64,000 bases of DNA from Candidatus Helarchaeota archaeon (GCA_019058315.1 JAHPZH010000001.1:599536-663535), one strand, 5' to 3'; counted from the stretch's first letter, positions 21,301 to 32,248 are shown. Made by a program: numbers and translations. Notes: generated from the sequence alone by a model not told the origin.

Positions 21301-23123
21301 TTGGTTATATGACTATTTGGGGGACAGGGGCTATCTCAATAGATAATAGCACAATTAATGACATATATACAGCTCAATCTTTAACTTCCTCACCAGTTGG
21401 CAATATTTTAATTACGAACTCAACTATCTCATGGGCATCTATTTCTGGGGAATTTATAGCGACCTTTATAAATTGTATAATTAATTCTTTGGTAGAAGGC
21501 ATTGTTGTTTATGATGGTACTGTTATAATAGATTCAACTGGGATAAGTGGGTCAGGAAGTTATACAAATTATACTCAAATCATTTCAAGTACAGTTTTTT
21601 CAAGGTCTTTAATGTTGATCGAAGTAAATAATACTGCTAATGTAATTATTAATGAAGGTTGGTATGGTAATATATATTTAATGCATGATGCAAGTGCCAC
21701 TCTAACTAATGCAAACATAGCAGGAATAGCTTTGTTCAATAATTCCAATGCTTTCATCCATAATTCTACTATAAACGGAACTTTGTTTGGGTTAATGAGT
21801 CTTGGGAGTTCTTATTTTTCAATTGATCAAAATTCCACTTTAAGTATGATGTTTTGTACGGCATCAAGTAATGGGACAATGACTAACTCTACGGTTCTTT
21901 CAAGATTAATCTTAGCCAATTCCGCAACATTGACCATTCTAAAATCTACAATCTTGGGAGTCGCTAAAATTATGGGGTCAAATTCAATTGATTATTCTCT
22001 TAAAATGTATAATTCATCAATTGATGTACTTGAGGGAATTATCTGGGATTATTTATTATTTTATGTAACTATTAAACCTTCAATAATATTAAATAGTCCA
22101 CAAAATCAAACTGTAATAAAAAAACCAGCATATATTGATCTTAAGATTTCAGATGATGATCTAGACCCCTCGACTGTGGAATGGATAGCAAACGTAACAC
22201 AACTTACTTGGACGAATTCTTTTATTGGGTCTTATGATATTGATCTATCTAGTTTTGCCAGTGACCAGACGGTGCAATTCTGGGTTAGAGCGAATGATAC
22301 TTTAGATAATCAGAATCTAATAACTTTTATTTTGACTTTTGATGATATTCCTCCAACTAAACCATCGAATCTAACAGCAATTATTCAAAAAGGCAATATT
22401 ACTATCTCTTGGAATTCATCTTCAGATTTTAATGCTATTTATTATCATATTTGGAGACATAGTAAAAGAGTTAGTAAATATTTAGGAAATACTACATCCA
22501 ATTTTTATATAGATCTCGAGAGTTTAAAACCAGGAAAATATACTTACGAGATAATTCCATTTGATGAAGCAAATAATACAGGAGAATCTATAAACATTAC
22601 TGTAAAAATACGAGGAAGAGATATATATTATCCATTTTTAGAACCCCCTAAAGATAATATAACCTTTATTATTTTCGTGATTATAGGATCTATAGCTGTA
22701 ACCACAAGCGTAGCAATTGTATATAGGAAATACAAAGGTTCAGAAAAAAAGCCTAAAAAAATAGGTAAGGAGACAGGACCAAAACGGAAAAAAAGAAAGA
22801 AATGGAAAGGTAAAATGGCTTTCAAAGTGGATTATATTGGAATCAGTGATCTTTCTGTAGAACTAAAGCTTAGAAATCTCACTAAATCCCCAATTCCTCT
22901 AGATTCCATTGAAGATGAAAATATTAGGGAATTTTATAGTCAAGAATTCAACATTTTATCTGTAGATGAAATAAATAGAATTTTAAAAATGCAAATTCCA
23001 GATATTTCTGATAAAATAGAAATATTGGATGAATTAGCTCGTTTATCTCCAGAAGAACGAAAAGATTTGATTGAATCTCTTGAAAAACTTAATCGATCAA
23101 GACTTAATAGTGAATTTCAATAA
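15330..23123 (+). CDS. Giant surface protein: two 7-repeat beta-propellers, ConA-like domain, WD40-like propeller, beta-helix, FN3-like domain, TM, cytoplasmic tail
   Basis: 7+7 repeats of VSTEST..S..P.IAVD..GNVHVxW.D..DYGGSGTD.DIFYK; W.Y...V.SVAIS.DG.YIAAGS repeats; NSTI repeats; signal peptide and C-terminal TM. Confidence 0.8.
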   Translation: MKKDKFVNLILAYFLIIFIFLPVIHSPSSNFLPLWSKITITNEIPKHKLELETSALGWPMTEVVSTESTGNSYHPSIAVDGTGNVHVAWEDWTDYGGSGTDNDIFYKCWNATTGTWKTIEVVSTESMGDSYSPTIAADGFGNVHVAWYDLSDYGGSGTDWDIFYKRWNATTGTWSGFINTTDVISTESTDLSRKPSLAVDSSGNVHVAWEDCTDYGGSGTDNDIFYKCWNTSTSSWTTTVLISTESTGNSYNPSIAVDGSENVHVAWYDLTDYGGSGTDKDIFYKRWNATGIWSGFINTTDIVSTESSNDSWLLAIAVDGSGNVYVAWCDLTDYGGSGTDPDIFYKCWNTTTGIWNTTEVVSTESTGISFHPTIAVDGSGNVHVAWMDYTDYEGAGTDRDIFYKRRNAITGIWSGYVNASDVVSTESTGQFYNSSPTIAVDTTGNVHVAWDDSTNYGGSGTDHDIFYKHQINIANNYSDDFNSGTLDPKWIWHDGGEGESWNLTVNPGNLRIISTSKINAWWGNNGDNIIYMPYIYQNFSNIQYFEIITKVNPPDGNGKGNGIVLYEDDNNYIVLNNYRDSVGNILYAQYRSVGDPLTNIGVIRTTVNYFKLMRIGNLISYQYSNDGSSWNILANYTHNYNFIRMGIFCSSVGGGIFNSDFDFFNFTELAPSMPPPDPNTKTPLWKYDTGSSIYSVAITPNGQYIAVGTGNSLHFWDINSSTPLWSYYVGDVVQAVDMSEDGNYIVAGTGVLDQPGNVVLWQRSSSTPIWNYTGSGNFGSIAISADGNYIVAGDRLSNNLHLWHRDNSTPLWSFNPGSGNWESVAISSDGYYIVASDGFYHDYVYYFDRTSSTPMWNYQCGSDVWSVDISKDGQYYAAGSKDHKIYFWQNNSDTPVWDYSTSGEVFSVSISNDGSHIAAGSVDNNLYYFKTDNSTPQWSYTTGDDICSERTVSISGDGEYIAAGTKDSKIYFFYRNDSTPIWNFTTITGSIGAIDLSDTGQYLVAGGQDHYVYVFSQDNEMPPTSNHPLDIITTVSGTETINWTLYDDSGPGQYRIWVNDTNNNYYIWIDWTPWINNTNLIVPINRSTVGVFNYTIEYNNSNGTFGIPDIVIVKIEISVFNWTMTEVISTESTEDSSQPAIAVDNLGNVHVVWNDWTDYGGSDMDCDVFYKRWNAITSNWTLTEVVSTESTLDVWNLSIVADSSGNLHVVWSDWTDYGGSGTDNDIFYKFWNATSGTWSGYINATDVVSTESTGSSRDPAIAVDGSGNVHVVWTEWSNGDIFYKFWNSTSKTWNGNINATDVVSTEGTGQSWYPSIDVDGSGNVHVVWEDSSDYGDSGTDDDIFYKFWNVTSRIWSGNINTTDIVSTESTGGSWYPSIAVDSSGNVHVVWSDWTDYGGAGLKNDIFYKFWNVTSGTWGGNFNATDVVSTESTESSYSPSIFVDSFNNLHVVWEDHTDYGMSGTDNDIFYKLRNAPSGIWSGTVNITDIISTESTGSSWNPSIVVDGSGNIHVTWDDMTNYNGSGIDRDIFYKKKTITELPSPPTSNHPADIITPLSGTDTINWTLYDDFGPGQYRVWVNDTNNNYYIWVDWTIWTNNTNLAIPINRTAIGVFNYTIEYNNSIGLFGIPDTVLVFINLPAQSNSIIYGLNSSIGYNYHAIRIDLGDIIVENTLNLTPGKLNGTPVINSTILENSNVIYESFLDNINLFGNAKLTMRNIFETGLNIYLFNNSELILENCTLNSITACDTSKVWIKNTTINYIYDYINWSFPIIFDPSPDSSTIYVLQKSTISQVHLSGGSNFVVENSTIDWMTMQSLANIISGISRISLQATITNSTLNYLRLYRDSKATVFSSQLITAYVYDIAKLSLVASTITNLYYGIICNSGFTSIVDGVPSGGYINNTQLIGTSPSGSFELISVAVTGSASAYIEGWLTTTSFDLYLYDSSLAQLNYTFDANLICSYNNSQLDIENSIITTIMAYLNSSVTIQKNCSIGYMTIWGTGAISIDNSTINDIYTAQSLTSSPVGNILITNSTISWASISGEFIATFINCIINSLVEGIVVYDGTVIIDSTGISGSGSYTNYTQIISSTVFSRSLMLIEVNNTANVIINEGWYGNIYLMHDASATLTNANIAGIALFNNSNAFIHNSTINGTLFGLMSLGSSYFSIDQNSTLSMMFCTASSNGTMTNSTVLSRLILANSATLTILKSTILGVAKIMGSNSIDYSLKMYNSSIDVLEGIIWDYLLFYVTIKPSIILNSPQNQTVIKKPAYIDLKISDDDLDPSTVEWIANVTQLTWTNSFIGSYDIDLSSFASDQTVQFWVRANDTLDNQNLITFILTFDDIPPTKPSNLTAIIQKGNITISWNSSSDFNAIYYHIWRHSKRVSKYLGNTTSNFYIDLESLKPGKYTYEIIPFDEANNTGESINITVKIRGRDIYYPFLEPPKDNITFIIFVIIGSIAVTTSVAIVYRKYKGSEKKPKKIGKETGPKRKKRKKWKGKMAFKVDYIGISDLSVELKLRNLTKSPIPLDSIEDENIREFYSQEFNILSVDEINRILKMQIPDISDKIEILDELARLSPEERKDLIESLEKLNRSRLNSEFQ

Positions 23124-23130
23124 TTAAGAA

Positions 23131-23189
23131 TGGTGGATAGGGGAGGATTCGAACCTCCAACCGCTCGGTTAACAGCCGAGTCCTATACC
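23131..23189 (-). pseudogene. 3' fragment of tRNA-Asn (att-like direct repeat)
   Basis: 59 bp with 2 mismatches to 27969-28027; lacks the 5' acceptor strand. Confidence 0.9.
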
Positions 23190-23209
23190 CAAAAGGATTT
23201 GTTGTTTAA

Positions 23210-26200
23210 ATGATTAGATGGAAATTCCAAAGGAGAAAAAACTCTATGAATAGAAATAAACTCTCATATTTTGGTAAAATTCAATTTTTTATAATTTTAA
23301 TATTTATTCTTTCTATGTTTTCATCCATATCTTATCTTTGGTCGCCTTGGAGCTATAAAATGAACCCAAGATCTCATATTGGTGATCAGGTGTTATTTAA
23401 ATCCGATTATTATGGCTATGGTAACGAAATAATAATGATTGAGGATCCTGATGCAGACGTTACTCCTGGTCCTTTTAATGATATAATCATAGTTTTTATA
23501 AATAGCAGTTCCGATCCAGCTGGATTATTCGTAACTGGCGATGAATTCGATCCTGGAGTATTTGTTGTCACGATTGGATTCACTGATGGTCCTACCGTTG
23601 GAACATTTCTCCATGTTGAAGATGGTGATTTAATTATGGTCATATATAAAGGAGAGGTGTATGCATCTGATATTTGGCATAAAACATACACAGCTATAAT
23701 CCCAAAACCCCCAATGGAAGATGAATATCATGGTTTATCTTCTTATCATGTATTAAAAATTCTGGATCCAGACATGGACATTACAAACATTACAGAAACT
23801 TTTATCCCTGATAATTTAACCGCTAAAATTGATAGCACAAGCGATCCAATTGGAATTACAGCAACATTCATTGAACTTTTCCCAACTGATGGGGAATTTT
23901 ACTTTGTATTTTCATTCACTAATGGATCTACTTATGATGATTATCTCCACGTAGAAGATGGAGATACGATTAGTTTAACATATTACGATGAACATAATTA
24001 TCAAGGAGATAGTGTTTATCTCGAAGCAAATGCCACTTGGCACAAAACTTATACCGGAACAATTAATGTAAGTGTAACTGGGTCTGTATCTGCGGGTTTA
24101 GATGCTGTTGCTGAAGTAACAATTAATGATAAAGATTTAGATATAAATCCTCTAGTTCTTGATAATTATTCTTTGCCATTTAGTCCCCTCGAGGTCCATA
24201 CTCAAGGAAATAGTTCCAATCTAATTAAAATCCCTCTAAATGAAACTGGACCATCAACTGGGATATTCAAAGGAGTTTTTAATTTAACATTAGGTCCGAC
24301 AAATCAAGATATTCCTTCCCTTCACGTATATGATGGTGCAATTATAATATATACGTATTATGATGCACGAGATATGTATGGTGATTCGGTAAATTTATCT
24401 AAACAAGAACAATTCTTTTTACATCAAAATGGTGTTTTCATAATCGATGATCTTGAATATTTTGGAGATCCAGTTACTGTAAATGTAACAATTAAAGATA
24501 AAGATTTAAACCAACTTCCGACTGTTCAAGAAACTGCAACAATTAATGCATCAAGTAGTCCTTCGGATCTAATTAGTATTACTATCTACGAAAATGGTAC
24601 AAATAGTGATAAATTCATAGGTCAATTTGACATAGGCTCCCTTGTTACATCCGATCCTGATGACTATTTACATGCAAATACAGGAGAAAATATAACAATT
24701 ATATATTTTGATGAAAAAGATATAAATGGTACATCCCAAACGAGAATTGTTAACATAACTTGGTATGAATTTCCAGAGCCCCCATCAATAAAAGTGGTAG
24801 GACTAGTAAATAATTCCATAATCTGGTCTGGGACTCTACTTAATTTCAATGTCTCTGATAATTGGTTAATAGATTCTATTTGGTATAGAGTTAATTTTGG
24901 TCCTAATATTACAATTGATACTTCTATTGGTGTTCATAATTTTTCATTCGTAATAAATGCTACAATAGAAGATCCCTACTGGATTTATGGTTTAAATTAT
25001 ATTGACATTTTTGCTAATGACTCTTTAGGTTTCGAAACTATGAGTAGATTTATACTTACTCTTGATGACACTCTTATTAGAATTAGACCACTTAATCAAA
25101 CAAATATTGTGCCAGATGCAGACGGTAATATCCTTATTGAATGGAACTCTTCGCCAGCTTGGAATCCTATTAGCTTTGATATTTACCGCAGTACCACCCT
25201 TGGATTTACCCCCAATGCAACAAACCAAATAGCACAGGGAATAAGTGATATATACTATTTAGATAATGGAACTGTTGATGGTCTTCATTATTATACAATT
25301 ATCGGTTTTAATGGGACTAATAACTCAACTTATTGGGAATATAGTTCGATATTGATTATCGATATAACTCCACCTAGTTGGGTTTTACCTCCAACTTTTA
25401 CCAGTACTCCAGTTGGTACAGAAAACGCTCGACTTGCCTGGACTAACTCGTTTGACTCTTATGATATAGCTGGATTTTCAATCTATCGAGCTAATGTTGA
25501 TAATTTTACCCAAAGTGTGCGGATTGCCAACCTGACCGAATTAACTTATCTGGACACTAGTTTAAATGCGACAATTTATTATTATTGGATAACAGCATAT
25601 GATGAGAAAGGACAAGAAAGCGGACCATCATTTTCTAGAAGTGTTATCCTACCTGGATTTGACGACGGGGATATCAGTTGTAATAAAGGAGAATACTTTG
25701 GTGATGGGGTCATCGTCTATGTGAATATTACTGATTTGGATTTAAATCAAAACGATTTAACCATTCAGAACGTCACAGTAACTGCAAATACCTCAACATA
25801 TTCAATTAATTTTACCTGTCTAGAATTAGGTCCTAATAGTGATACTTTTGTAGGTAATTTTTCGTTAGTAACTACTGGTACTAATGATTCAACAGATGAG
25901 TTGAACATTACACCTGGAAGTACTATCACAATTTTTTATTTAGATGAAAAGAATAGCGCTGGGTATCCAATATATAGATCTGTTACGATATTTTGGATCG
26001 ACGATCCCCAACCCCCAATTATAGAATTGGACGCCCCTGCAAATAGTTCTATTGTTTGGAGTTGGGATACACTTTATTTCACTGTAAGAGATAATGTACG
26101 GGTAGATTCTGTTTGGTATAGAGTTAATGATGGTATTAATGTAACAGTTGCTACTGATATACAATTCGATGAATATTCATTTGGAATCCTTGTTAATTTA

Positions 26201-27937
26201 TCAGCTCCCGATTGGATTTATGGTTTTAATTATATTGATATTTTTGCTAATGACACTATGGGTATGGAAAATACTAGTAGATTTTCATTTATTATTGATG
26301 ATACCCTTATTAGAATTAGACCGCTTAATTTAACAAATATTGAGCCAGATGCAGACGGTAATATCCTCATTGAATGGAACTCTTCGCCAGCTTGGAATCC
26401 TATTAGCTTTGATATTTACCGCAGTACAATCCCTGGATTCATTCCCAATGCAACAAACCGAATAGCACAAGCGATACCTTGGTCAACTAATTATTATATA
26501 GATAATGGAACTGACGATGGTCTTCACTATTATACAATTATTGGATTTAATGGGACTCATAATTCAACTTGCTGGGAATATGGTTCAATATTAGTTAACG
26601 ATATTACTCCACCGATTCCACCCCAAGATATTAATGCTACTCCAGTTGGTACAAGTGGTGTTCGTCTCATCTGGACTGCCCCGCCAGCCTATTATGATGT
26701 GGTTGGATATTCAATCTACCGAGCTACTATAGATGATTTTGCCCAAAGTGTGTGGATTGCCAACGTGACCGAATTGACACATTTAGACACAGGTTTAAGT
26801 AGTGGACTTTATTTTTATTGGATAACAGCATATGACGAGAAAGGACAAGAAAGCGGACCATCATCACCGGAATTTGTTATATTACCTGGACCAGAAGATG
26901 GTCATATTGAAACTGATAGAGCAGGGTACTTTGGGGAAAATGTTACCGTTTATGTAACCATTACAGATCTAGACTTAAACCAAGATGATTTATCAGTTCA
27001 GGATGTTACTATAAACGTTTCAACTGGTTTTGAATTAATTTATGTAAATCTTTTTGAGTCCGGTTGTAATAATAATACTTTTTTTGGGAATTTTACCTTA
27101 GTTACTTACATTACAAACGATACTCTTGATTACATAAATGTTACTGACGGAGCTATTATTACCATTTCATATCTTGATGAAACGAACAGCCTTGATATTC
27201 CTGAATTATTTCATATTAATATTACTTGGAACTTGATCTCCCAAGCCCCAATAATAAATCTGATAAGCCCGGAGAATGAAACCACAGTTCAAAAACCTAA
27301 CTTAATTGATTTGAATATTTATGATCCAAACTTGGATCTTTCCACTGTGGAATGGAGGGCAAACACAACACAGCTTACTTGGACAAATTCGTTTATTGGG
27401 TCCTATGATATTGATCTATCGAGTTTTGCTAGTGACCAAACTGTGCAATTTTGGGTTAGAGCGAATGATACTGCAGATAATCAGAATTTAATAACTTTTG
27501 TTTTAACTTTTGATGATATTCCTCCAACCAAACCATCGAATATGACAGCAGTAATTCAAAAAGGTAATATTACAATCTCATGGAATACATCTTCAGATGT
27601 TCATATAGTTTATTATCATATTTGGCGACATAGTAAAAAAGAAAGTAAATATTTAGGAAATATCACATCCACTTTTTATACAGATCTCGAGAGTTTAAAA
27701 CCGGGAAAATATACTTATGAAATAATTCCATTTGATGAAGCAAATAATACAGGAGAATCTATAACCATTACTGTAAAAATCAGAGGAAAAGAAACTTATT
27801 ATCCATTCTTGGAACCACTTGATAATCAAGTGACTATTATAATAATAGCAATTTTAGGATCGATAGCTATGGTGATAGGTATTGCTGTATTATTAATGAG
27901 AAAAAAATTTATTTCAGCAAAAAACCATAGTAAATAA
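23210..27937 (+). CDS. Large membrane-anchored surface protein with Ig-like/FN3 repeats
   Basis: Repeated I.D.DLN domains, internal duplication (DGNILIEWNSSPAWNPISFDIYRST twice), FN3 motif YYYWITAYD, C-terminal TM. Confidence 0.8.
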   Translation: MIRWKFQRRKNSMNRNKLSYFGKIQFFIILIFILSMFSSISYLWSPWSYKMNPRSHIGDQVLFKSDYYGYGNEIIMIEDPDADVTPGPFNDIIIVFINSSSDPAGLFVTGDEFDPGVFVVTIGFTDGPTVGTFLHVEDGDLIMVIYKGEVYASDIWHKTYTAIIPKPPMEDEYHGLSSYHVLKILDPDMDITNITETFIPDNLTAKIDSTSDPIGITATFIELFPTDGEFYFVFSFTNGSTYDDYLHVEDGDTISLTYYDEHNYQGDSVYLEANATWHKTYTGTINVSVTGSVSAGLDAVAEVTINDKDLDINPLVLDNYSLPFSPLEVHTQGNSSNLIKIPLNETGPSTGIFKGVFNLTLGPTNQDIPSLHVYDGAIIIYTYYDARDMYGDSVNLSKQEQFFLHQNGVFIIDDLEYFGDPVTVNVTIKDKDLNQLPTVQETATINASSSPSDLISITIYENGTNSDKFIGQFDIGSLVTSDPDDYLHANTGENITIIYFDEKDINGTSQTRIVNITWYEFPEPPSIKVVGLVNNSIIWSGTLLNFNVSDNWLIDSIWYRVNFGPNITIDTSIGVHNFSFVINATIEDPYWIYGLNYIDIFANDSLGFETMSRFILTLDDTLIRIRPLNQTNIVPDADGNILIEWNSSPAWNPISFDIYRSTTLGFTPNATNQIAQGISDIYYLDNGTVDGLHYYTIIGFNGTNNSTYWEYSSILIIDITPPSWVLPPTFTSTPVGTENARLAWTNSFDSYDIAGFSIYRANVDNFTQSVRIANLTELTYLDTSLNATIYYYWITAYDEKGQESGPSFSRSVILPGFDDGDISCNKGEYFGDGVIVYVNITDLDLNQNDLTIQNVTVTANTSTYSINFTCLELGPNSDTFVGNFSLVTTGTNDSTDELNITPGSTITIFYLDEKNSAGYPIYRSVTIFWIDDPQPPIIELDAPANSSIVWSWDTLYFTVRDNVRVDSVWYRVNDGINVTVATDIQFDEYSFGILVNLSAPDWIYGFNYIDIFANDTMGMENTSRFSFIIDDTLIRIRPLNLTNIEPDADGNILIEWNSSPAWNPISFDIYRSTIPGFIPNATNRIAQAIPWSTNYYIDNGTDDGLHYYTIIGFNGTHNSTCWEYGSILVNDITPPIPPQDINATPVGTSGVRLIWTAPPAYYDVVGYSIYRATIDDFAQSVWIANVTELTHLDTGLSSGLYFYWITAYDEKGQESGPSSPEFVILPGPEDGHIETDRAGYFGENVTVYVTITDLDLNQDDLSVQDVTINVSTGFELIYVNLFESGCNNNTFFGNFTLVTYITNDTLDYINVTDGAIITISYLDETNSLDIPELFHINITWNLISQAPIINLISPENETTVQKPNLIDLNIYDPNLDLSTVEWRANTTQLTWTNSFIGSYDIDLSSFASDQTVQFWVRANDTADNQNLITFVLTFDDIPPTKPSNMTAVIQKGNITISWNTSSDVHIVYYHIWRHSKKESKYLGNITSTFYTDLESLKPGKYTYEIIPFDEANNTGESITITVKIRGKETYYPFLEPLDNQVTIIIIAILGSIAMVIGIAVLLMRKKFISAKNHSK

Positions 27938-27968: not shown

Positions 27969-28045
27969 TGGCGGATAGGGGAGGATTCGAACCTCCAACC
28001 GCTCGGTTAACAGCCGAGTGCTATACCTGATTAAGCCACCTACCC
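27969..28045 (-). tRNA. tRNA-Asn(GTT), CCA encoded
   Basis: Cloverleaf; CTCGG-CT-GTT-AA-CCGAG; G73. Confidence 0.95.
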
Positions 28046-28052
28046 ATTTTAA

Positions 28053-28127
28053 TGGGATGGAGATCGGGAATTGAACCCGAGTCTATTGAGCCACAATCAA
28101 TTATTCTACCATTAAACTATCTCCACC
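28053..28127 (-). tRNA. tRNA-His(GTG), G-1 and CCA encoded
   Basis: ATTGA-TT-GTG-GC-TCAAT; G-1:C73. Confidence 0.95.
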
Positions 28128-28133
28128 AAAATT

Positions 28134-28243
28134 TGGTGCGGATGGGGAGATTTGAACTCCCGTTTTTAGATTTCAGCAGTTTTTGGCGTTCTAGTCCAAA
28201 TAATTTGGAAGTCTAAATGTCTAAACCTCTAACGTACATCCGC
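28134..28243 (-). tRNA. tRNA-Gly(TCC) with intron carrying an alternative GCC anticodon
   Basis: TTAGA-CT-TCC-A, 34-nt intron (28172-28205), A-TCTAA; GCC cassette at 28185-28187. Confidence 0.9.
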
Positions 28244-28250
28244 AAAAAAA

Positions 28251-28613
28251 TTAGAGAATTAAGGCAGGCACTGTAATAAATTGCACTGGATTTCTCTTGT
28301 TATACTTTCTATGACATTCCCAACACCATGTAATATTGTTTGTTAATGTTTCAACTTTATAAGCTGAACCGTTACACTTTCCAATAATATGGTGTCGTGT
28401 CAAGTAATTGTTTGGGTCTAGTTTATTTTGTTTTACACCGCATTTCTGACAGGTAAATTTATCTCTATTGTAGATAAATAACCGGAGCTTTAGTTGAAAT
28501 CGCCCGCAGTGTGGACATTGAATGTAACCGATAACTTCTTTATTGAATTGTTTGCATTGTTTGTATTCTTTTTTCAGACCTTTTATTGTTTTTTTACAAT
28601 AAATACACTTAAA
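28251..28613 (-). pseudogene. HNH endonuclease frame with N-terminal Zn-ribbon; start codon missing
   Basis: 120 open codons: FKCIYCK...CPHCG...RDKFTCQKCG...LTRHHII...NNITWCWECHRKYN. GAGGTGA SD upstream, but an in-frame TGA precedes the frame. Confidence 0.8.
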
Positions 28614-28641
28614 TCACACATCACCTCTTTTTGTTTGTTGA

Positions 28642-28713
28642 TCCGACTGTGCGGATTTGAACCACAATATCACAGATCTACAGTCTGCTGCCGTACCAGT
28701 TGGCTACAGTCGG
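28642..28713 (-). tRNA. tRNA-Tyr(GTA)
   Basis: C1-G72, A73, short variable loop (archaeal type); GCAGA-CT-GTA-GA-TCTGT. Confidence 0.95.
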
Positions 28714-28793
28714 TATTTTAATAAAGATGGGTAGGGTCTAATTCAAAAAAAATAAAAGGGATTGATGGTAAGTCTAATTATATTAAGATATTT

Positions 28794-28910
28794 TTAATCA
28801 ACTTCCTTAGACATCGGACTTAATACAACCTCTACGACTTTTTCAACAACTTTCATTTCTTCTGCTTCTTTTTCCGTCAAATATGCATAATAACCCATAT
28901 ATTGTTGCAA
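28794..28910 (-). CDS. Putative 38-aa microprotein
   Basis: GGAGGTGA SD, then TTG: MQQYMGYYAYLTEKEAEEMKVVEKVVEVVLSPMSKEVD*. Confidence 0.45.
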   Translation of the reverse strand: MQQYMGYYAYLTEKEAEEMKVVEKVVEVVLSPMSKEVD

Positions 28911-28970
28911 AATTCTTCACCTCCAATTTTTTTTTAAGATAATTTCTAGCTTCAATTGGGTTTTGTAAAG

Positions 28971-29041
28971 TTGCACAGACAGGAATCGAACCTGCTTGCA
29001 ACTCGTTGTAAGCGAGTCAACGATCCAACCGTCCCTGTGCA
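28971..29041 (-). tRNA. Atypical tRNA-Val(TAC)-like gene
   Basis: 7-bp acceptor TGCACAG/CTGTGCA, canonical T arm, loop CT-TAC-AA; but G8, a 5-nt D loop and a 6-bp anticodon stem. Confidence 0.65.
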
Positions 29042-29046
29042 AATGA

Positions 29047-29121
29047 TGGAATCGGTGGGATTTGAACCCACATAAACTTGATCTTCAGTCAAGCGGACTC
29101 GCCGGATTATCCTACGATTCC
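29047..29121 (-). tRNA. tRNA-Phe(GAA)
   Basis: CTTGA-CT-GAA-GA-TCAAG. Confidence 0.95.
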
Positions 29122-29123
29122 AA

Positions 29124-29209
29124 TGGTGGGGTTACTAGGATTTGAACCTAGATCACCAGATTTCTCCACATTTGGAGTCTGGAAGTCTCCCGGATTAACG
29201 TATAACCCC
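29124..29209 (-). tRNA. tRNA-Trp(CCA) with 10-nt intron at 37/38
   Basis: CCAGA-CT-CCA-A-[ATGTGGAGAA]-A-TCTGG; CTCC/GGAG helix. Confidence 0.92.
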
Positions 29210-29211
29210 AT

Positions 29212-29327
29212 TGGTACTCCCGCTCGGGTTCGAACCGAGGTCAATGGGTTTCTCCCATATTCAGATTATGTTTGATCTGAATCAGACCAAAGCCCATCAT
29301 GCTTGGCCAAAGCTACACCACGGGAGT
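29212..29327 (-). tRNA. tRNA-Gln(TTG) with intron carrying an alternative CTG anticodon
   Basis: A1-U72; 37-nt intron 29250-29286; T-CTG-A cassette at 29261-29265. Confidence 0.92.
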
Positions 29328-29331
29328 ATTA

Positions 29332-29482
29332 TGGCGGTAGGGGAGAGATTTGAACTCTCGCTCCCCGTGGGGAAGTAGATTTCTGGTAAAGTGAAATCTC
29401 AACTCGAGGGTAGGCTACTAAGCCGTTCCATTCTCACTGCTTCAATAGCAGTCTACCGTCGTAACCACTTGACTACCCTACC
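29332..29482 (-). tRNA. tRNA-Ser(GCT) with intron carrying CGA, GGA and TGA anticodons
   Basis: Long variable arm, G73; 65-nt intron 29381-29445. Confidence 0.92.
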
Positions 29483-29490
29483 GCTGATTG

Positions 29491-29607
29491 TGGCGGACTT
29501 GGGGAGATTTGAACTCCCAATCTACGGGTTTCTCCACGATTAAGTTCGGGTTACCCCAAAGCTTGAGATAAAAGCCCGTTGCCGTAACCTGGTTTGGCCA
29601 CAAGTCC
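29491..29607 (-). tRNA. tRNA-Lys(TTT) with intron carrying an alternative CTT anticodon
   Basis: 39-nt intron 29530-29568; CTT at 29542-29544 preceded by CCCG-AA. Confidence 0.92.
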
Positions 29608-29611
29608 GCTT

Positions 29612-29824
29612 TGGCGGGATTGCGGGGAATTGAACCCCGACCTTATGATTTCTGTACTACGGTCGCTTTCCTCCTTTTTCAAAGTCTTATTCTAAACCCT
29701 GCCATGGATAAGTCAACTGAACCCCTATTAAGGAAATTTAATCATTTTTGAGGTGAAATTAATAATTATCAAAAAGGGGCCGTAGTTAGACAGTCATAAA
29801 TCATAGCCATTAGACCACAATCCC
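29612..29824 (-). tRNA. tRNA-Asp(GTC) with 138-nt intron
   Basis: Strict BHB (CTGT/ACAG helix, ACTACGG/CCGTAGT outer stem); intron 29650-29787; G73, CCA. Confidence 0.88.
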
Positions 29825-29882
29825 ATTATTCCTCTTCGACTTCAGCCCTAATCTTAAATTAAAAAATGGGGATAATTTGTTA

Positions 29883-29929
29883 GGGGGCAATAATTAGACA
29901 GTCATTAATAACTATTGAACCACAATCCC
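29883..29929 (-). pseudogene. Degenerate copy of the tRNA-Asp 5' half plus intron start
   Basis: GGGATTGTGGTTCAATAGTTATTAATGACTGTCTAATTATTGCCCCC versus GGGATTGTGGTCTAATGGCTATGATTTATGACTGTCTAACTACGGCCCC. Confidence 0.75.
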
Positions 29930-29963
29930 CGTAAGATGTTGTTGGCTGAGTATACAACTATCT

Positions 29964-30028
29964 GGCTTCAGTACGAGAGGAACAATTTCACATTGTTTGT
30001 TTCTGACAAGAGGAACTTCATCATAGCC
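29964..30028 (-). ncRNA. Box C/D guide sRNA complementary to the 23S sarcin-ricin loop
   Basis: GGCT-ATGATGA-AGTTCCTCTTGT-CAGA-...ATGTGA...-GTTCCTCTCGTA-CTGA-AGCC: terminal stem, perfect C and D boxes, both guides antisense to (U)ACGAGAGGAAC. Confidence 0.85.
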
Positions 30029-30158
30029 TTGGGAATTATAGTTTGGATAACGACTTATATCCAAGCCCCTGCTATTTCGTTCTCTCATTTTCATTACCAA
30101 TTGCTACACCTCTTACTTTAATTGATTGTATACAATAGATTGTTTTCATCTGATAAAC

Positions 30159-30195
30159 TAATGATAGTGGCAGTAGGATTTGAACCTACAATCTT
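30159..30195 (-). pseudogene. 3' fragment of initiator tRNA-Met (direct repeat)
   Basis: 37 bp with 1 mismatch to 31002-31038. Confidence 0.9.
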
Positions 30196-30214
30196 ACAGG
30201 CTATTTGCAAAGAA

Positions 30215-30874
30215 TTAGATATTCTCTATTATGTATTTGGTCATTCCTTTTAAGATATATAACTCCTTTGTACTATCAATTCTCAATTTGCATACCCCAT
30301 TATAACTTCTACCGATTCCTCTAGAGCCATGCTTTTTTATGTAAGGTTTTGTAAACTGATTCTTTGGAATATTAAGTATTATTGACCAATAAGAAATCAT
30401 TTTTTCAATTTCATGATAAGAATGTAGATGAAGATGAATCTTAATAGAATTTTTATCGATTTTAAGAACATCTAAAAGAAATCTAAGAAAAATTTCAATT
30501 AATTTTGGGTCGGAATTACTAAATTCTATTCTATGATCACTAGATGTAGTCCCTTCGCTCTGATATAATGTTGTTCCTATTATCATTAGGTCTGACCAAT
30601 TTTCTTTTGCAATTTTCTGCCCTTCCTTATAATATAGTTTTCTTCGTTGTTTTGCTAGTTCCTTCATTTTGTGATGCCCTTTTTCTAGAATAGATTGAGA
30701 TTTCTTCTTCAGTCTATCTTTTTGTTCATTTGTTAAAATTATATCTCTTGTCCAGTTCGCAACTGTTCCCTTCGGTATTCCCATTTGTGAAGATATTTCT
30801 CCAAAAGAATACCCCTTTTTACGCAACCTCCTAGCTTTTCTCTTAATTTTTTCTTTATAACTTCTATACTTCAA
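30215..30874 (-). CDS. HTH plus LAGLIDADG-like (homing-endonuclease-fold) protein
   Basis: N-terminal HTH (LRKKGYSFGEISSQMGIPKGTVANW); GTTLYQSEG followed by IEFSNSDPKLIEIFLRFL. Confidence 0.7.
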   Translation of the reverse strand: MKYRSYKEKIKRKARRLRKKGYSFGEISSQMGIPKGTVANWTRDIILTNEQKDRLKKKSQSILEKGHHKMKELAKQRRKLYYKEGQKIAKENWSDLMIIGTTLYQSEGTTSSDHRIEFSNSDPKLIEIFLRFLLDVLKIDKNSIKIHLHLHSYHEIEKMISYWSIILNIPKNQFTKPYIKKHGSRGIGRSYNGVCKLRIDSTKELYILKGMTKYIIENI

Positions 30875-31007
30875 TGAACATCACTCTTATATCTCCATAG
30901 CCCAATAATGGCAGTTCAATTGTTTTGTTTCATATTCATATATAAACTCAACAAATTCTCCTGACTATCAAGTGAAATTTTCGTAGAGACGGGAAATTCA
31001 ATAATGA

Positions 31008-31101
31008 TAGTGGCAGTAGGATTCGAACCTACAATCTTTGGGTATCTCAATAGATTATTATTTATGAGCCCAACGAGATCTCCTGATTACTCCATGCCAC
31101 T
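31008..31101 (-). tRNA. Initiator tRNA-Met(CAT) with 19-nt intron
   Basis: A1-U72, three G-C pairs closing the anticodon stem; intron 31044-31062 with CTCA/TGAG helix. Confidence 0.92.
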
Positions 31102-31102
31102 A

Positions 31103-31241
31103 TGGTAGAGAGGAGGGGGATCGAACCCCTGCTCTTCAGTTGTCTAAAATTGTTTTGTTACAAAGACAACCATATAAGATTCGTCTTTGTATGACATTAC
31201 ATCATATCAGACTGACGCCTGAACCACTCGGCTACCTCTCT
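31103..31241 (-). tRNA. tRNA-Ile(GAT) with 63-nt intron
   Basis: TCAGT-CT-GAT-A, intron 31142-31204, A-ACTGA. Confidence 0.9.
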
Positions 31242-31243
31242 AT

Positions 31244-31351
31244 TGGTGCTGACCGGGGGAATCGAACCCCCGTCAACGGATGTCTTCATGTAAATTCGAG
31301 ATTGCGTTTCAATCGAAAGTCCGCTATACTTGTCCGCTATACTAGGCCAGC
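31244..31351 (-). tRNA. tRNA-Glu(TTC) with intron carrying an alternative CTC anticodon
   Basis: 32-nt intron 31282-31313; T-CTC-G at 31297-31301. Confidence 0.92.
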
Positions 31352-31355
31352 ACGG

Positions 31356-31492
31356 TGGAGGGCTAGGAGGGATTTGAACCCTCAACATCTCACTATCTCT
31401 GGCTAACTTACGCTACAGATACATTCCGCATAAGGAAGAGCATGTCTTCTGCATACTAGGCGAGCGCTCTAGACCATTGGAGCTACTAACCC
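31356..31492 (-). tRNA. tRNA-Thr: AGT in place, TGT after removing a 33/34 intron
   Basis: U73, CCA; BHB TCGC/GCGG-AA|TGT-A defines introns 31424-31457 and 31395-31419. Confidence 0.8.
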
Positions 31493-31578
31493 TATTTTTC
31501 CAATGCAAATGGTTCTTAAACCATACTATTTTTTAAAACTTCTTTTCATCAACTCCGTTTTTTTTATTTTAAATATGT

Positions 31579-31656
31579 TGGTGGACTCGCCGAGCTTCGA
31601 TCTCGGAGCCTCCTACTTGCAAAACAGGCGTTCTACCATTTTCGAACTACGAGTCC
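31579..31656 (-). tRNA. tRNA-Ala(TGC), atypical (A3-U70, A54)
   Basis: CCTGT-TT-TGC-AA-GTAGG; acceptor GGACTCG/CGAGTCC; T loop ATCGAAG. Confidence 0.85.
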
Positions 31657-31665
31657 ATTTTTCTA

Positions 31666-31738
31666 TGGGCAAGAGAGGATTCGAACCTCTGTGGGTTGGT
31701 CTGCATCCAACTGCATGACCTAATTCTGCCACTTACCC
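31666..31738 (-). tRNA. Atypical second tRNA-Cys(GCA)
   Basis: GTTGG-AT-GCA-GA-CCAAC; A32, A73, no encoded CCA. Confidence 0.7.
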
Positions 31739-31762
31739 ACTATTAAACAAATGTAATTTTGA

Positions 31763-31839
31763 TGGAGGATAAGACAGGATTTGAACCTGTGTGAAATTGG
31801 GTTGCAGCCAATCGCCTACGCCAACTCAGCCACTTATCC
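31763..31839 (-). tRNA. tRNA-Cys(GCA)
   Basis: ATTGG-CT-GCA-AC-CCAAT; U73, CCA. Confidence 0.95.
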
Positions 31840-31843
31840 TTAA

Positions 31844-32020
31844 TGGTGCAGGAGGAGGGATTTGAACCCTCGGTCTCAAGATTTCTTCTAGTATTAGGAT
31901 TCTGTTCGGATTCCGTTATTCGAATACTGTACTATTCGCATTCTGTTATTAGAATTCCAGATCGATGAGGATAACCTCAAAAAATTGTCTTGTAGTTTAT
32001 CCATACTAGCGTACTCCTGC
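31844..32020 (-). tRNA. tRNA-Arg with five tandem anticodon cassettes (TCT, GCG, TCG, CCG, CCT)
   Basis: A20 in D loop; stem CAAGA/TCTTG; on the + strand the insert reads Arg codons AGG 31896, CGG 31907, CGA 31921, CGC 31937 and AGA 31951, each in a tt-NNN-at context. Confidence 0.88.
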
Positions 32021-32021
32021 A

Positions 32022-32100
32022 TGGTGGGATCGGCAAGATTTGAACTTGCGATTGCTTGATCCCAAATCAAGAGTCCTAAACCATACTAGACCACGATCCC
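32022..32100 (-). tRNA. tRNA-Pro(TGG)
   Basis: CTTGA-TT-TGG-GA-TCAAG; CCA. Confidence 0.95.
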
Positions 32101-32110
32101 CAGTATAAAG

Positions 32111-32248
32111 TGGAAGGAAGGGGTTTCGAACCCCTGAACTCCTACGAGATTAGATTTCTCACAGACCTTGAGTGTCGTTCTTAGTATCGTTCTTGACCGA
32201 TAATAAATATCTTAAGTCTAACGCCTTTGACCACTTGGCTATCCTTCC
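32111..32248 (-). tRNA. tRNA-Leu(TAA) with 55-nt intron containing CAA/TAA repeats
   Basis: Long variable arm, A73; intron 32156-32210. Confidence 0.9.

What the first reader, a model, noticed from the sequence alone, without database searches (positions are those of the whole stretch)
31844..32020. One tRNA-Arg gene carrying all five archaeal Arg anticodons as tandem mini-exon cassettes
Seen: an intact tRNA body (A20, CAAGA/TCTTG stem, CCA) has no valid anticodon after C32 (it reads C-A-ATT-T). The insert holds five units: GGAA|T-TCT-AA, AGAA|T-GCG-AA, AGTA|T-TCG-AA, GGAA|T-CCG-AA, AGAA|T-CCT-AA. Each has U33 and A37 and is preceded by G-N-A, like the 3' splice sites of other introns in this array. 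A relaxed BHB at 32/33 (CAAG/CTGG, intron 31955-31986) joins C32 to the TCT unit and creates a perfect CTTC/GAAG helix for the 37/38 intron. Known: TCT, CCT, GCG, TCG and CCG are the standard archaeal Arg anticodon set, and A20 is an Arg identity element. Inference: alternative or recursive splicing (or DNA cassette switching) makes up to five isoacceptors from one gene. Cassettes 2-5 lack clean BHB helices by eye, so their mechanism is open. Anticodon swapping by trans-splicing of split tRNAs is known in Caldivirga; I know of no cis cassette array like this.
Basis: partly seen in the sequence, partly recalled or inferred. Interest (0 to 1): 0.98.

Follow-up and report, generated by a model that had tools for sequence, protein, structure and literature searches.

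The report
One tRNA-Arg gene, five anticodon cassettes
A single arginine tRNA gene in a Helarchaeota-like Asgard archaeon has no anticodon in place; its insert holds five short units spelling all five archaeal arginine anticodons, kept unchanged in five diverged genomes, which suggests one gene makes several tRNAs by alternative splicing, though no RNA evidence exists yet.

Summary
On the minus strand at 32020-31844 lies a complete tRNA-Arg body (A20, CAAGA/TCTTG anticodon stem, encoded CCA). A 104-nt insert follows C32. It holds T-TCT-A, T-GCG-A, T-TCG-A, T-CCG-A and T-CCT-A.

- **Chance:** only 5 of 200,000 dinucleotide shuffles of the insert contain all five.
- **Conservation:** I found four more distinct orthologues, in three MAGs and one Logan contig. 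All keep the five units in the same order. 0 of 25 core positions vary against 40 of 81 other insert columns (p = 9e-7). Spacers gain indels, and the acceptor and T stems change by compensatory pairs.
- **Context:** neighbouring genes of the same tRNA array (Gly, Glu, Gln, Lys, Thr, Ser) hide synonymous anticodons behind a second bulge-helix-bulge (BHB) motif whose helix covaries with the anticodon stem.
- **Machinery:** the genome encodes an (alpha-beta)2-type splicing endonuclease and RtcB.
- **DNA switching:** four metagenome runs show no DNA rearrangement.

**Best reading (about 0.6):** alternative, stepwise BHB splicing yields several Arg isoacceptors. The TCT route is clear. Cassettes 2-5 most plausibly use a CTGG AA|T "hub" site; a strong copy of this design sits in the Thr gene, but the Arg helices are weak. 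No RNA data exist. This is a new cis variant of the anticodon swapping known from split tRNAs. The scan's first-stage notes had already flagged the array-wide design on this same window.

The parts
31844..32020 (-). Whole tRNA-Arg gene with a 104-nt insert between C32 and A38 and an encoded CCA
   Evidence: Read directly. The acceptor and T stems pair perfectly. All five spliced products are called tRNA-Arg by ARAGORN. Orthologues were found.
31987..32020 (-). 5' exon, tRNA positions 1-32: acceptor GCAGGAG, D loop with G18 G19 A20, anticodon-stem strand CAAGA, C32
   Evidence: In this lineage only 2 of 4 D-stem pairs form. G003 and G006 have a perfect D stem.
31955..31986 (-). First intron, at position 32/33. 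It carries a hairpin at 31966-31979 and the 3' splice-site context CGAT CTGG AA|T.
   Evidence: BHB score: CAAG/CTGG 3 of 4 pairs plus an inner helix of 3-6 bp in four of the five genomes, 1 bp in L036. The hairpin shows compensatory changes (GAGG/CCTC to GAGA/TCTC).
31955..31960 (-). Proposed hub site CTGG AA|. It would act as the 3' splice site with exon 1, and as the 5' splice site paired with the NCAG NN| contexts before cassettes 2-5.
   Evidence: CTGG is invariant in all five genomes. All 20 pre-cassette 4-mers (ACAG, ACGG, TCGG, ATGG, TCAG, CCAG, CCAA) keep 3-4 of 4 pairs with it, and none pairs with CAAG. The role is inferred.
31950..31954 (-). Cassette 1: T33-TCT-A37 (Arg, reads AGA)
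   Evidence: Invariant in five orthologues.
31936..31940 (-). Cassette 2: T33-GCG-A37 (Arg, reads CGU/CGC)
31920..31924 (-). Cassette 3: T33-TCG-A37 (Arg, reads CGA). It is always preceded by CAGTA.
31906..31910 (-). Cassette 4: T33-CCG-A37 (Arg, reads CGG)
31895..31899 (-). Cassette 5: T33-CCT-A37 (Arg, reads AGG)
31883..31888 (-). GAAG AA|: the 3' half of the canonical 37/38 BHB, shared by all cassettes
   Evidence: GAAG pairs 4 of 4 with C32-T33-T34-C35 (TCT, TCG). It pairs 3 of 4 with the GCG, CCG and CCT forms, with the mismatch only at position 34. GAAG is invariant in five genomes.
31844..31882 (-). 3' exon: A38, TCTTG, variable loop AGACC, T arm, CTCCTGC, A73, CCA
   Evidence: The acceptor and T stems change by compensatory pairs among orthologues.
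27969..32248 (-). Surrounding co-oriented tRNA array of about 22 genes, several with hidden synonymous anticodons
   Evidence: with covariation of the second BHB shown.

Best explanation
The gene is a compressed, multi-isoacceptor tRNA-Arg gene. One precursor carries one tRNA body and five interchangeable anticodon units (U33-NNN-A37). The host's broad-specificity splicing endonuclease and RtcB ligase would remove different stretches of the insert, so that C32 is joined to one unit and that unit's A37 is joined to A38.

**Route for TCT**
1. A relaxed BHB at 32/33 (CAAG/CTGG, bulges AC|A and AA|T, inner helix ATT/GAT plus hairpin) removes the first intron.
2. A canonical BHB at 37/38 (CTTC/GAAG on the true anticodon stem) removes everything downstream.

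**Proposed route for units 2-5 (inferred)**
1. The invariant CTGG AA|T site first acts as a 5' splice site, pairing with the NCAG NN|T context in front of unit n. This deletes the earlier units and leaves the CTGG AA| context intact.
2. The same two steps as for TCT follow. The 37/38 helix then carries a single mismatch at position 34 for the GCG, CCG and CCT forms.

Competition between these foldings would set the ratio of isoacceptors.

**Shown:** the anatomy, its conservation, the array-wide design and the enzymes.
**Inferred:** that splicing happens at all, the hub step, and how many of the five products are made.
For: 1. **Complete set.** The five units spell exactly the archaeal Arg anticodon set, each with U33 and A37. 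Chance is 2.5e-5 by dinucleotide shuffle.
2. **Conservation.** Five distinct orthologues keep all five units in the same order: the window, L037/L038 (syntenic), L036, G003 and G006. 0 of 25 core positions vary against 40 of 81 other insert columns (p = 9e-7) and 17 of 35 spacer columns (p = 1.7e-5). Spacers carry 3-5 nt indels.
3. **A living tRNA body.** The acceptor and T stems change by compensatory pairs, A20 is kept, and one orthologue has gained a T-loop intron.
4. **Same design in sister genes.** In Gly, Glu, Gln and Lys a 4-mer complementary to positions 27-30 (or 28-31) sits 2 nt before a synonymous anticodon, and it covaries with the stem. Gly has TTAG/CTAG, CCAG/CTGG and GCAG/CTGC. 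Glu has GCGG/ACGC, CCAG/CTGG and TCGG/CCGA. Ser-CGA behaves likewise.
5. **A strong hub elsewhere in the array.** In the Thr gene, GCGG AA|TGT pairs 4 of 4 with YTGT RR|CGT and has a 5-bp outer helix, in two genomes. This is the only perfect partner of GCGG among about 55 intron positions.
6. **Pre-cassette 4-mers.** All 20 keep at least 3 of 4 pairs with CTGG despite six variant forms, and they share the G.A mismatch seen in the Gln and Glu helices of this window.
7. **Machinery.** There are two EndA paralogues, 27% identical. One lacks the catalytic His, which indicates an (alpha-beta)2 enzyme. RtcB is present. That enzyme type cleaves non-canonical introns (abstract of PMC5829648).
Against: - No RNA evidence of any kind exists.
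- For units 2-5 the hub helix has only 3 bp plus a G.A mismatch in most cases, and its flanking helices are 0-2 bp. About 22% of random 4-mers would pair this well with CTGG, and the spacers are paralogues, so they are not independent.
- The routes for units 2-5 need three ordered splicing events.
- The D stem is weak (2 of 4 pairs) in the window's lineage.
- The host has its own Arg(TCG) and Arg(CCT) genes, so the array is accessory and no product is demonstrably required.
- Pro, Ala and Val genes of the same array carry a single UNN anticodon, so full isoacceptor sets are not a general rule of the array.
- RNAalifold predicts that units 1-4 are base-paired with each other and with spacers. 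That pairing could contribute to their conservation.
Confidence: 0.6

Rival explanations
1. The gene makes only tRNA-Arg(UCU), through two introns (32/33 and 37/38). Units 2-5 are part of the long second intron. They would be relics of tandem duplication of the anticodon-loop segment, kept because the intron must fold in a particular way.
For: - Only the TCT route has respectable BHB motifs.
- The spacers look like degenerate copies of stem positions 28-32, with an 11-nt period in G003 and G006.
- RNAalifold pairs units 1-4 with each other and with spacers.
Against: - Structural constraint does not explain why the five triplets are exactly the five Arg anticodons, each with U33 and A37.
- It does not explain why spacing is free to change by indels while the triplets never change.
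- No compensatory change is seen in the predicted unit-unit helices.
- Sister genes show covariation for anticodon-swapping BHBs.
Confidence: 0.2
2. The excised insert, linear or circular, is the functional product. It would be a string of Arg anticodon-loop mimics acting as a decoy or sponge, for example for an anticodon nuclease, a modification enzyme or ArgRS. Only one tRNA, or none, needs to be made.
For: - The units are conserved.
- The array sits with homing-endonuclease genes, and one orthologous array sits in a possibly mobile or viral contig. tRNA arrays of mobile elements are often linked to conflicts over tRNA. That link is general knowledge and was not tested here.
Against: - The units lack their own stems of normal length, so they are poor mimics of an anticodon stem-loop.
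- The tRNA body is itself conserved by compensatory change.
- Sister genes fit a splicing design rather than a decoy.
- No nuclease or target was identified.
Confidence: 0.08
3. The anticodon is chosen at the DNA level. Recombination among the repeated units would delete or reorder cassettes, so that different cells carry different single-anticodon genes.
For: Short direct repeats (CAGAAT and similar) flank the units.
Against: - Five genomes from different samples hold the same full five-unit order.
- Contigs of four metagenome runs cover the gene without joints, and differ only at 31972/31974 in the hairpin loop and at 31847 in the encoded CCA.
- Deletion would be irreversible.
- No recombinase gene or site is adjacent.
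Confidence: 0.03
4. The gene is a decaying pseudogene in an accessory array, and the pattern has no function.
For: - The D stem is weak in the window's lineage.
- The gene is missed by tRNA finders.
- The host has other Arg tRNA genes.
Against: - Compensatory changes appear in the acceptor stem, the T stem and the intron hairpin.
- Splice-site contexts and triplets are invariant across five diverged genomes.
Confidence: 0.04

Closest known systems
Tri-split tRNA-Gly and split tRNAs of Caldivirga maquilingensis (Fujishima et al. 2009; reviewed in PMC4390854 and PMC4033280)
   Same: One constitutive tRNA part is combined with alternative anticodon-carrying pieces to give synonymous isoacceptors. 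The pieces are joined at BHB-like motifs by the splicing endonuclease and ligase.
   Different: There, the pieces are separate genes transcribed from different loci and joined in trans through complementary leaders. Here, all alternatives lie in cis inside one precursor, as 5-nt units between C32 and A38. The choice must therefore be made by alternative folding and splicing of a single RNA.
Nanoarchaeum equitans split tRNA-Glu(UUC)/(CUC) sharing one 3' half (Randau et al. 2005; PMC4390854)
   Same: Two synonymous anticodons share one tRNA half. This is the same UUC/CUC pair as in the Glu gene of this array.
   Different: That system uses trans-splicing of half genes, with two alternatives only. 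There is no cassette array.
Multiple-intron and non-canonical-intron tRNA genes of Thermoproteales and Asgard archaea (PMC4090602; bioRxiv 10.64898/2026.10.13.758758)
   Same: They have BHB or relaxed BHB introns at positions such as 32/33 and 37/38, several per gene, and need (alpha-beta)2 or epsilon2 endonucleases.
   Different: In those genes each intron is simply removed and one mature tRNA results. The 2026 Asgard census text holds no occurrence of 'cassette', and the passages shown for 'anticodon' and 'alternative' describe no alternative anticodon.
tRNA gene arrays of phages, plasmids and other mobile elements
   Same: A dense, co-oriented, AT-richer accessory set of roughly one tRNA per amino acid, with HNH and LAGLIDADG-type endonuclease genes interspersed.
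   Different: Known arrays encode one anticodon per gene. This one appears to multiply anticodons by splicing. In the window and L037 it lies between ordinary chromosomal genes.
Anticodon editing that lets one gene decode more codons (kinetoplastid mitochondrial tRNA-Trp C-to-U, marsupial mitochondrial tRNA-Asp; from general knowledge)
   Same: One tRNA gene gives two decoders after transcription.
   Different: That works by base editing of a single nucleotide, not by exchange of an encoded anticodon unit through splicing.

Membership tests
tRNA-Arg gene | Cloverleaf body with acceptor, D, anticodon and T arms | tested here: met
   ARAGORN folds every spliced product as tRNA-Arg. The acceptor, anticodon and T stems are perfect. 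The D stem has 2 of 4 pairs in the window, L037 and L036, and 4 of 4 in G003 and G006.
tRNA-Arg gene | Arg identity elements A20 and C35 (established knowledge of ArgRS recognition) | tested here: met
   G18 G19 A20 is present in all five orthologues. All five units have C35.
tRNA-Arg gene | Aminoacylation with arginine | not testable with these tools
   Needs biochemistry.
Archaeal BHB-intron tRNA gene | A bulge-helix-bulge, or a relaxed form of it, at each exon-intron boundary | tested here: inconclusive
   Met for 32/33 to unit 1: 3 of 4 central pairs plus a 3-6 bp inner helix (1 bp in L036). Met for 37/38 of the TCT and TCG forms: 4 of 4 pairs plus the 5-bp anticodon stem. The 37/38 helix has a single mismatch at position 34 for GCG, CCG and CCT. 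For units 2-5 there is no helix with positions 27-30, only the weak CTGG hub.
Archaeal BHB-intron tRNA gene | Splicing endonuclease able to cut non-canonical sites, and an RtcB ligase, in the genome | tested here: met
   Two EndA paralogues, of which one lacks the catalytic His, and one RtcB.
Archaeal BHB-intron tRNA gene | Introns actually removed in vivo | not testable with these tools
   No RNA run holds the locus.
Split or tri-split tRNA | Pieces encoded at separate loci, with complementary leader or trailer sequences, and joined in trans | tested here: not met
   All parts are contiguous in one 177-nt gene, 1 nt after tRNA-Pro. It works like a tri-split tRNA in swapping the anticodon piece, but it is not a member of that family.
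Mobile or viral tRNA array | Carried by an element with integration, replication or virion genes, and variable in location | tested here: inconclusive
   The location differs between genomes and HNH and LAGLIDADG-like genes lie inside the array. L036 has phage-like nucleic-acid enzymes. However, no capsid, terminase or integrase was found, and the window and L037 share chromosomal synteny.

The most novel reading that the evidence does not exclude
The whole array is a compressed translation kit. It would hold one tRNA body per amino acid, with the full isoacceptor set generated by a network of competing BHB foldings: a primary site, hub sites, and a shared 37/38 site. Up to five Arg, four Ser, three Thr and two each of Gly, Glu, Gln, Lys and Ile species would come from single genes. 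The ratio of isoacceptors would be tunable by RNA folding conditions. This would be the first alternative splicing of tRNA in cis, found in the archaeal lineage closest to eukaryotes, and possibly spread by a mobile or viral element.
Probability: 0.4. Interest if true: 0.95.

Novelty: new variant of a known kind. Interest (0 to 1): 0.88.

Why it matters
- **The rule it would break.** If the products exist, the rule that one tRNA gene specifies one anticodon fails. Genome annotation would undercount isoacceptors wherever such genes occur, because standard tRNA finders miss this gene entirely.
- **A new kind of regulation.** It would be alternative splicing carried out by the tRNA endonuclease and ligase system. 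That adds a layer of control over the tRNA pool in Asgard archaea.
- **Evolution of broken tRNA genes.** It would be a cis counterpart of split and tri-split tRNAs, and so bears on how disrupted tRNA genes evolve.
- **Testability.** The system is compact enough to test directly: a 177-nt transcript, two endonuclease subunits and one ligase. It also offers a design for packing several decoders into one synthetic gene.

Tried and rejected
**Searches that led nowhere**
- RNA evidence: no RNA holder is listed for the locus.
- More orthologues by DNA pattern:
  - 400 genomes of the phylum gave only the three already known.
  - Metagenome contigs gave one copy identical to G003 and one chance hit in a coding region.
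  - Genome contigs gave G003, G006 and three chance hits in bacteria.
  - Viral contigs gave nothing with two patterns.
  - Extra orthologues came only through the HNH protein encoded inside the array.
- Literature: five full-text searches found no report of cis anticodon cassettes or alternatively spliced tRNAs.

**Splicing routes tested and rejected**
- Direct BHBs from exon 1 to units 2-5, in registers shifted by 0-7 nt. None is conserved. One perfect helix at 28/29 for TCG (ACTA/TAGT) falls to 3 of 4 pairs in L037 and is absent from the other three genomes.
- Unit-to-unit skipping at other offsets, and skipping at 37/38. No consistent helices appeared.
- A downstream CTG after unit 5, or T41-T42-G43, as partner of the spacers' CAG. 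These have the wrong topology for a 3' cut before U33, and the downstream CTG is not conserved in three genomes.
- An unrestricted BHB enumeration. It was far too permissive to be informative.

**Other negative or inconclusive checks**
- Thermodynamic folding gives different optimal structures in different genomes and no BHB for units 2-5.
- Identical T-arm and acceptor hits in other Lokiarchaeia turned out to be unrelated tRNA-Leu genes.
- A relaxed whole-genome scan for host tRNAs was mostly noise. I therefore did not establish the host's full Arg repertoire.

Full report
**What is there**

The window lies in a 5.8-Mb, 30% G+C archaeal genome. Its closest public relatives that carry the same locus are named Candidatus Helarchaeota archaeon.

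On the minus strand between 32248 and 27969 stands an array of about 22 co-oriented tRNA genes. Many have introns and an encoded CCA. One nucleotide after tRNA-Pro begins the gene in question, at 32020-31844.

Its 5' part reads acceptor GCAGGAG, a D loop with G18 G19 A20, the stem strand CAAGA and C32. Its 3' part reads A38, TCTTG, a 5-nt variable loop, a perfect T arm, CTCCTGC, A73 and CCA. Between C32 and A38 lie 104 nt and no anticodon in place.

The insert has three parts:
- a first intron with a hairpin, ending in CGAT CTGG AA;
- five units T-TCT-A, T-GCG-A, T-TCG-A, T-CCG-A and T-CCT-A, each preceded by RGWA;
- a tail ending in GAAG AA.

**Is it more than chance?**

All five Arg anticodons in a T-NNN-A context appear in 5 of 200,000 dinucleotide-preserving shuffles of the insert. 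This test is conservative, because the shuffles keep the composition contributed by the units themselves.

The arrangement is not an assembly artefact. Contigs of four other metagenome runs cover the gene. They differ only at 31972/31974 in the hairpin loop and at 31847 in the encoded CCA, and they show no joints.

**Comparative evidence**

BLAST over 60 relatives found two orthologues in another family of the same order, G003 and G006. Through the HNH endonuclease gene encoded inside the array I found two more distinct orthologues:
- L037/L038, in two Helarchaeota MAGs;
- L036, in a Logan contig.

All five distinct genes carry the same five units in the same order. In the alignment, 0 of 25 core positions (U33, anticodon, A37) vary. 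By contrast, 40 of 81 other insert columns vary (Fisher p = 9e-7), as do 17 of 35 spacer columns (p = 1.7e-5).

Spacers differ by indels of 3-5 nt, so spacing is not constrained. The tRNA body has diverged strongly, but by compensatory changes:
- acceptor GCAGGAG, GCAGAAG or GCAGCGG, each with a matching 3' strand;
- T stems GAGGG, GAGAG, GCGAG or GGGAG, each with its complement.

A20 is kept throughout. L037 has even gained a 28-nt T-loop intron. These are living genes, and the triplets are under selection as Arg anticodons.

**The array-wide design**

The scan's earlier notes on this window suggested hidden synonymous anticodons in other genes of the array. I tested this with the orthologues.

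In Gly, Glu and Gln, a 4-mer complementary to stem positions 27-30 lies exactly 2 nt before a second U33-NNN. In Lys the 4-mer (CCCG) pairs with positions 28-31 and lies 2 nt before C34, because the junction is at 33/34; its stem is the same in both genomes, so it shows no covariation. In Gly, Glu and Gln the 4-mer covaries with the stem:

| Gene | Window | G003 | G006 |
|---|---|---|---|
| Gly | TTAG/CTAG | CCAG/CTGG | GCAG/CTGC |
| Glu | GCGG/ACGC | CCAG/CTGG | TCGG/CCGA |
| Gln | ATGG/ACAT | GCGG/CCGA | TCGG/CCGA |

Ser-CGA has GTAG/CTAC in the window and GCAG/ATGC in L036. This is good evidence that a second BHB at 32/33 or 33/34 swaps the anticodon in these genes.

The shared 37/38 helix often fits one form perfectly and the other with a single mismatch at position 34. 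That is the same situation as in the Arg gene.

**How the Arg gene could work**

My BHB geometry was checked on canonical introns of the array, such as Glu and iMet.

*TCT route.* The 32/33 motif has CAAG/CTGG (3 of 4 pairs), bulges AC|A and AA|T, and an inner helix of 3-6 bp in four genomes (1 bp in L036) followed by a hairpin with compensatory changes. After that splice, C-U-U-C pairs perfectly with GAAG on top of the true anticodon stem, giving a canonical 37/38 motif.

*Units 2-5.* The 4-mers before U33 are ACAG, ACGG, TCGG, ATGG, TCAG, CCAG or CCAA. They do not pair with CAAG in any register. A systematic search for an upstream partner common to all of them gave CTGG, 2 nt before unit 1, as the only conserved candidate in a sensible place.

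I therefore propose a hub:
1. CTGG AA|U(1) pairs with NCAG NN|U(n).
2. The two symmetric cuts delete units 1 to n-1 and keep the CTGG AA| context.
3. The 32/33 and 37/38 steps then follow.

All 20 pre-cassette 4-mers keep 3-4 of 4 pairs with CTGG. The usual G.A mismatch is the same as in the Gln and Glu helices of this window.

The design has a strong copy in the Thr gene. There, GCGG AA|UGU is itself the partner of stem 28-31. It also pairs 4 of 4 with YUGU RR|CGU and has a 5-bp outer helix, in both genomes that hold the gene. It is the only perfect partner among about 55 intron positions.

For Arg the flanking helices are only 0-2 bp. An offset 3-4 bp helix between CGAT and C35-G36-A37 is possible for the three NCG units. 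This step therefore remains an inference.

**Machinery and context**

The genome has two EndA paralogues, 27% identical. One lacks the catalytic His, which indicates an (alpha-beta)2 enzyme. It also has one RtcB. According to PMC5829648, only (alpha-beta)2 and epsilon2 enzymes cut non-canonical introns.

The host has ordinary, G+C-richer tRNA genes elsewhere, including Arg(TCG) and Arg(CCT). The array is therefore accessory.

The array's location varies:
- It is syntenic between the window and L037, next to the flavoprotein, amino-acid kinase, UbiD and AcnX genes.
- It lies elsewhere in G003 and G006.
- In L036 it sits beside a Dam methylase, a CCA-adding-enzyme-like gene, a topoisomerase-like gene and homing endonucleases.

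This fits a mobile origin but does not prove one.

**Rivals**

- *TCT-only with relic units.* This explains the good TCT motifs. It does not explain why the triplets spell the full Arg set and never change while spacers do.
- *A decoy role for the excised insert.* Possible, but without positive evidence.
- *DNA switching.* Contradicted by identical order in five genomes and by the absence of joints.
- *A pseudogene.* Contradicted by compensatory evolution.

**Novelty**

Five full-text searches found no cis case. The closest known systems are the split and tri-split tRNAs, in which alternative anticodon-carrying transcripts are joined in trans to shared parts.

This gene works like them, but it is not a member of that family, because everything lies in one precursor. 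I rate it a new variant of a known kind and of high interest. The decisive test, sequencing or reconstituting the spliced products, is simple.

Noticed in passing
window 31359-31492 (-); L037 8226-8357: A Thr-type gene has AGT in place, an A34 anticodon that is unusual for archaea. It also holds TGT and CGT units. A 33/34 BHB (TCGC/GCGG, 4 of 4 pairs) and a hub BHB (GCGG AA|TGT with YTGT RR|CGT, 4 of 4 pairs plus a 5-bp outer helix) are conserved in both genomes.
   Followed up: partly
window 28137-28243, 29215-29327, 29494-29607, 31247-31351 (-): The Gly, Gln, Lys and Glu genes each hide a second synonymous anticodon behind a second BHB. In Gly, Gln and Glu its helix covaries with the anticodon stem across three genomes; in Lys it is complementary but unchanged. 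In the window the Gly GCC unit has C33 instead of U33.
   Followed up: yes
window 29335-29482 (-); L037 9336-9479; L036 9190-9330: The Ser gene holds GCT (ACT in L036) plus TGA, GGA, CGA and a second TGA unit. Only CGA has a strict BHB with exon 1. A conserved TGAG/CTCG helix links the GGA and second TGA sites.
   Followed up: partly
window 32111-32248 (-): A Leu-type class II gene has TAA in place and CAA units in the intron. The shared 37/38 helix TGAG fits both forms perfectly. I could not work out the route to CAA.
   Followed up: partly
window 28254-28613 (-) and 30215-30874 (-): An HNH-type zinc-finger endonuclease gene and a 219-aa ORF of no known family (which the scan's first-stage notes called LAGLIDADG-like) lie inside the array. 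The 219-aa ORF is followed by a duplicated 3' half of the neighbouring tRNA (30165-30205, compare 31006-31050), as expected after a homing or insertion event.
   Followed up: partly
L036 (Logan contig, 27 kb): An orthologous tRNA array lies beside genes for a Dam methylase, a CCA-adding-enzyme-like protein with an HD domain, a topoisomerase-like protein, a photolyase-like radical SAM protein and homing endonucleases. This may be a virus or other mobile element of Helarchaeales. No capsid or terminase was seen in the 20 kb read.
   Followed up: partly
L037 about 7910-7945: The Arg orthologue of a syntenic relative has gained a 28-nt hairpin intron in the T loop (59/60) that is absent from the window. 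This looks like a recent intron gain.
   Followed up: no
L021 10858-10993 (G003): The orthologue of the Ile gene (GAT in place, TAT unit in the intron) has GAC (Val) in place in G003 while keeping the TAT unit. If both were made, they would carry different amino-acid identities on one body.
   Followed up: no
G000 C1:289844-289951: The host's own tRNA-Arg(CCT) gene has a D-arm intron. It shares the D-loop string CTAGTATGGATAA with the window's array Arg gene, which hints that the array gene's 5' part derives from it or was converted by it.
   Followed up: no
window 15330-27937 (+): Two giant ORFs (2597 and 1575 aa) abut the array. The 1575-aa ORF, the only one scanned, gave weak fibronectin type III and phage tip-attachment-protein Ig-like matches. 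It is unclear whether they are host adhesins or remnants of a virus.
   Followed up: no
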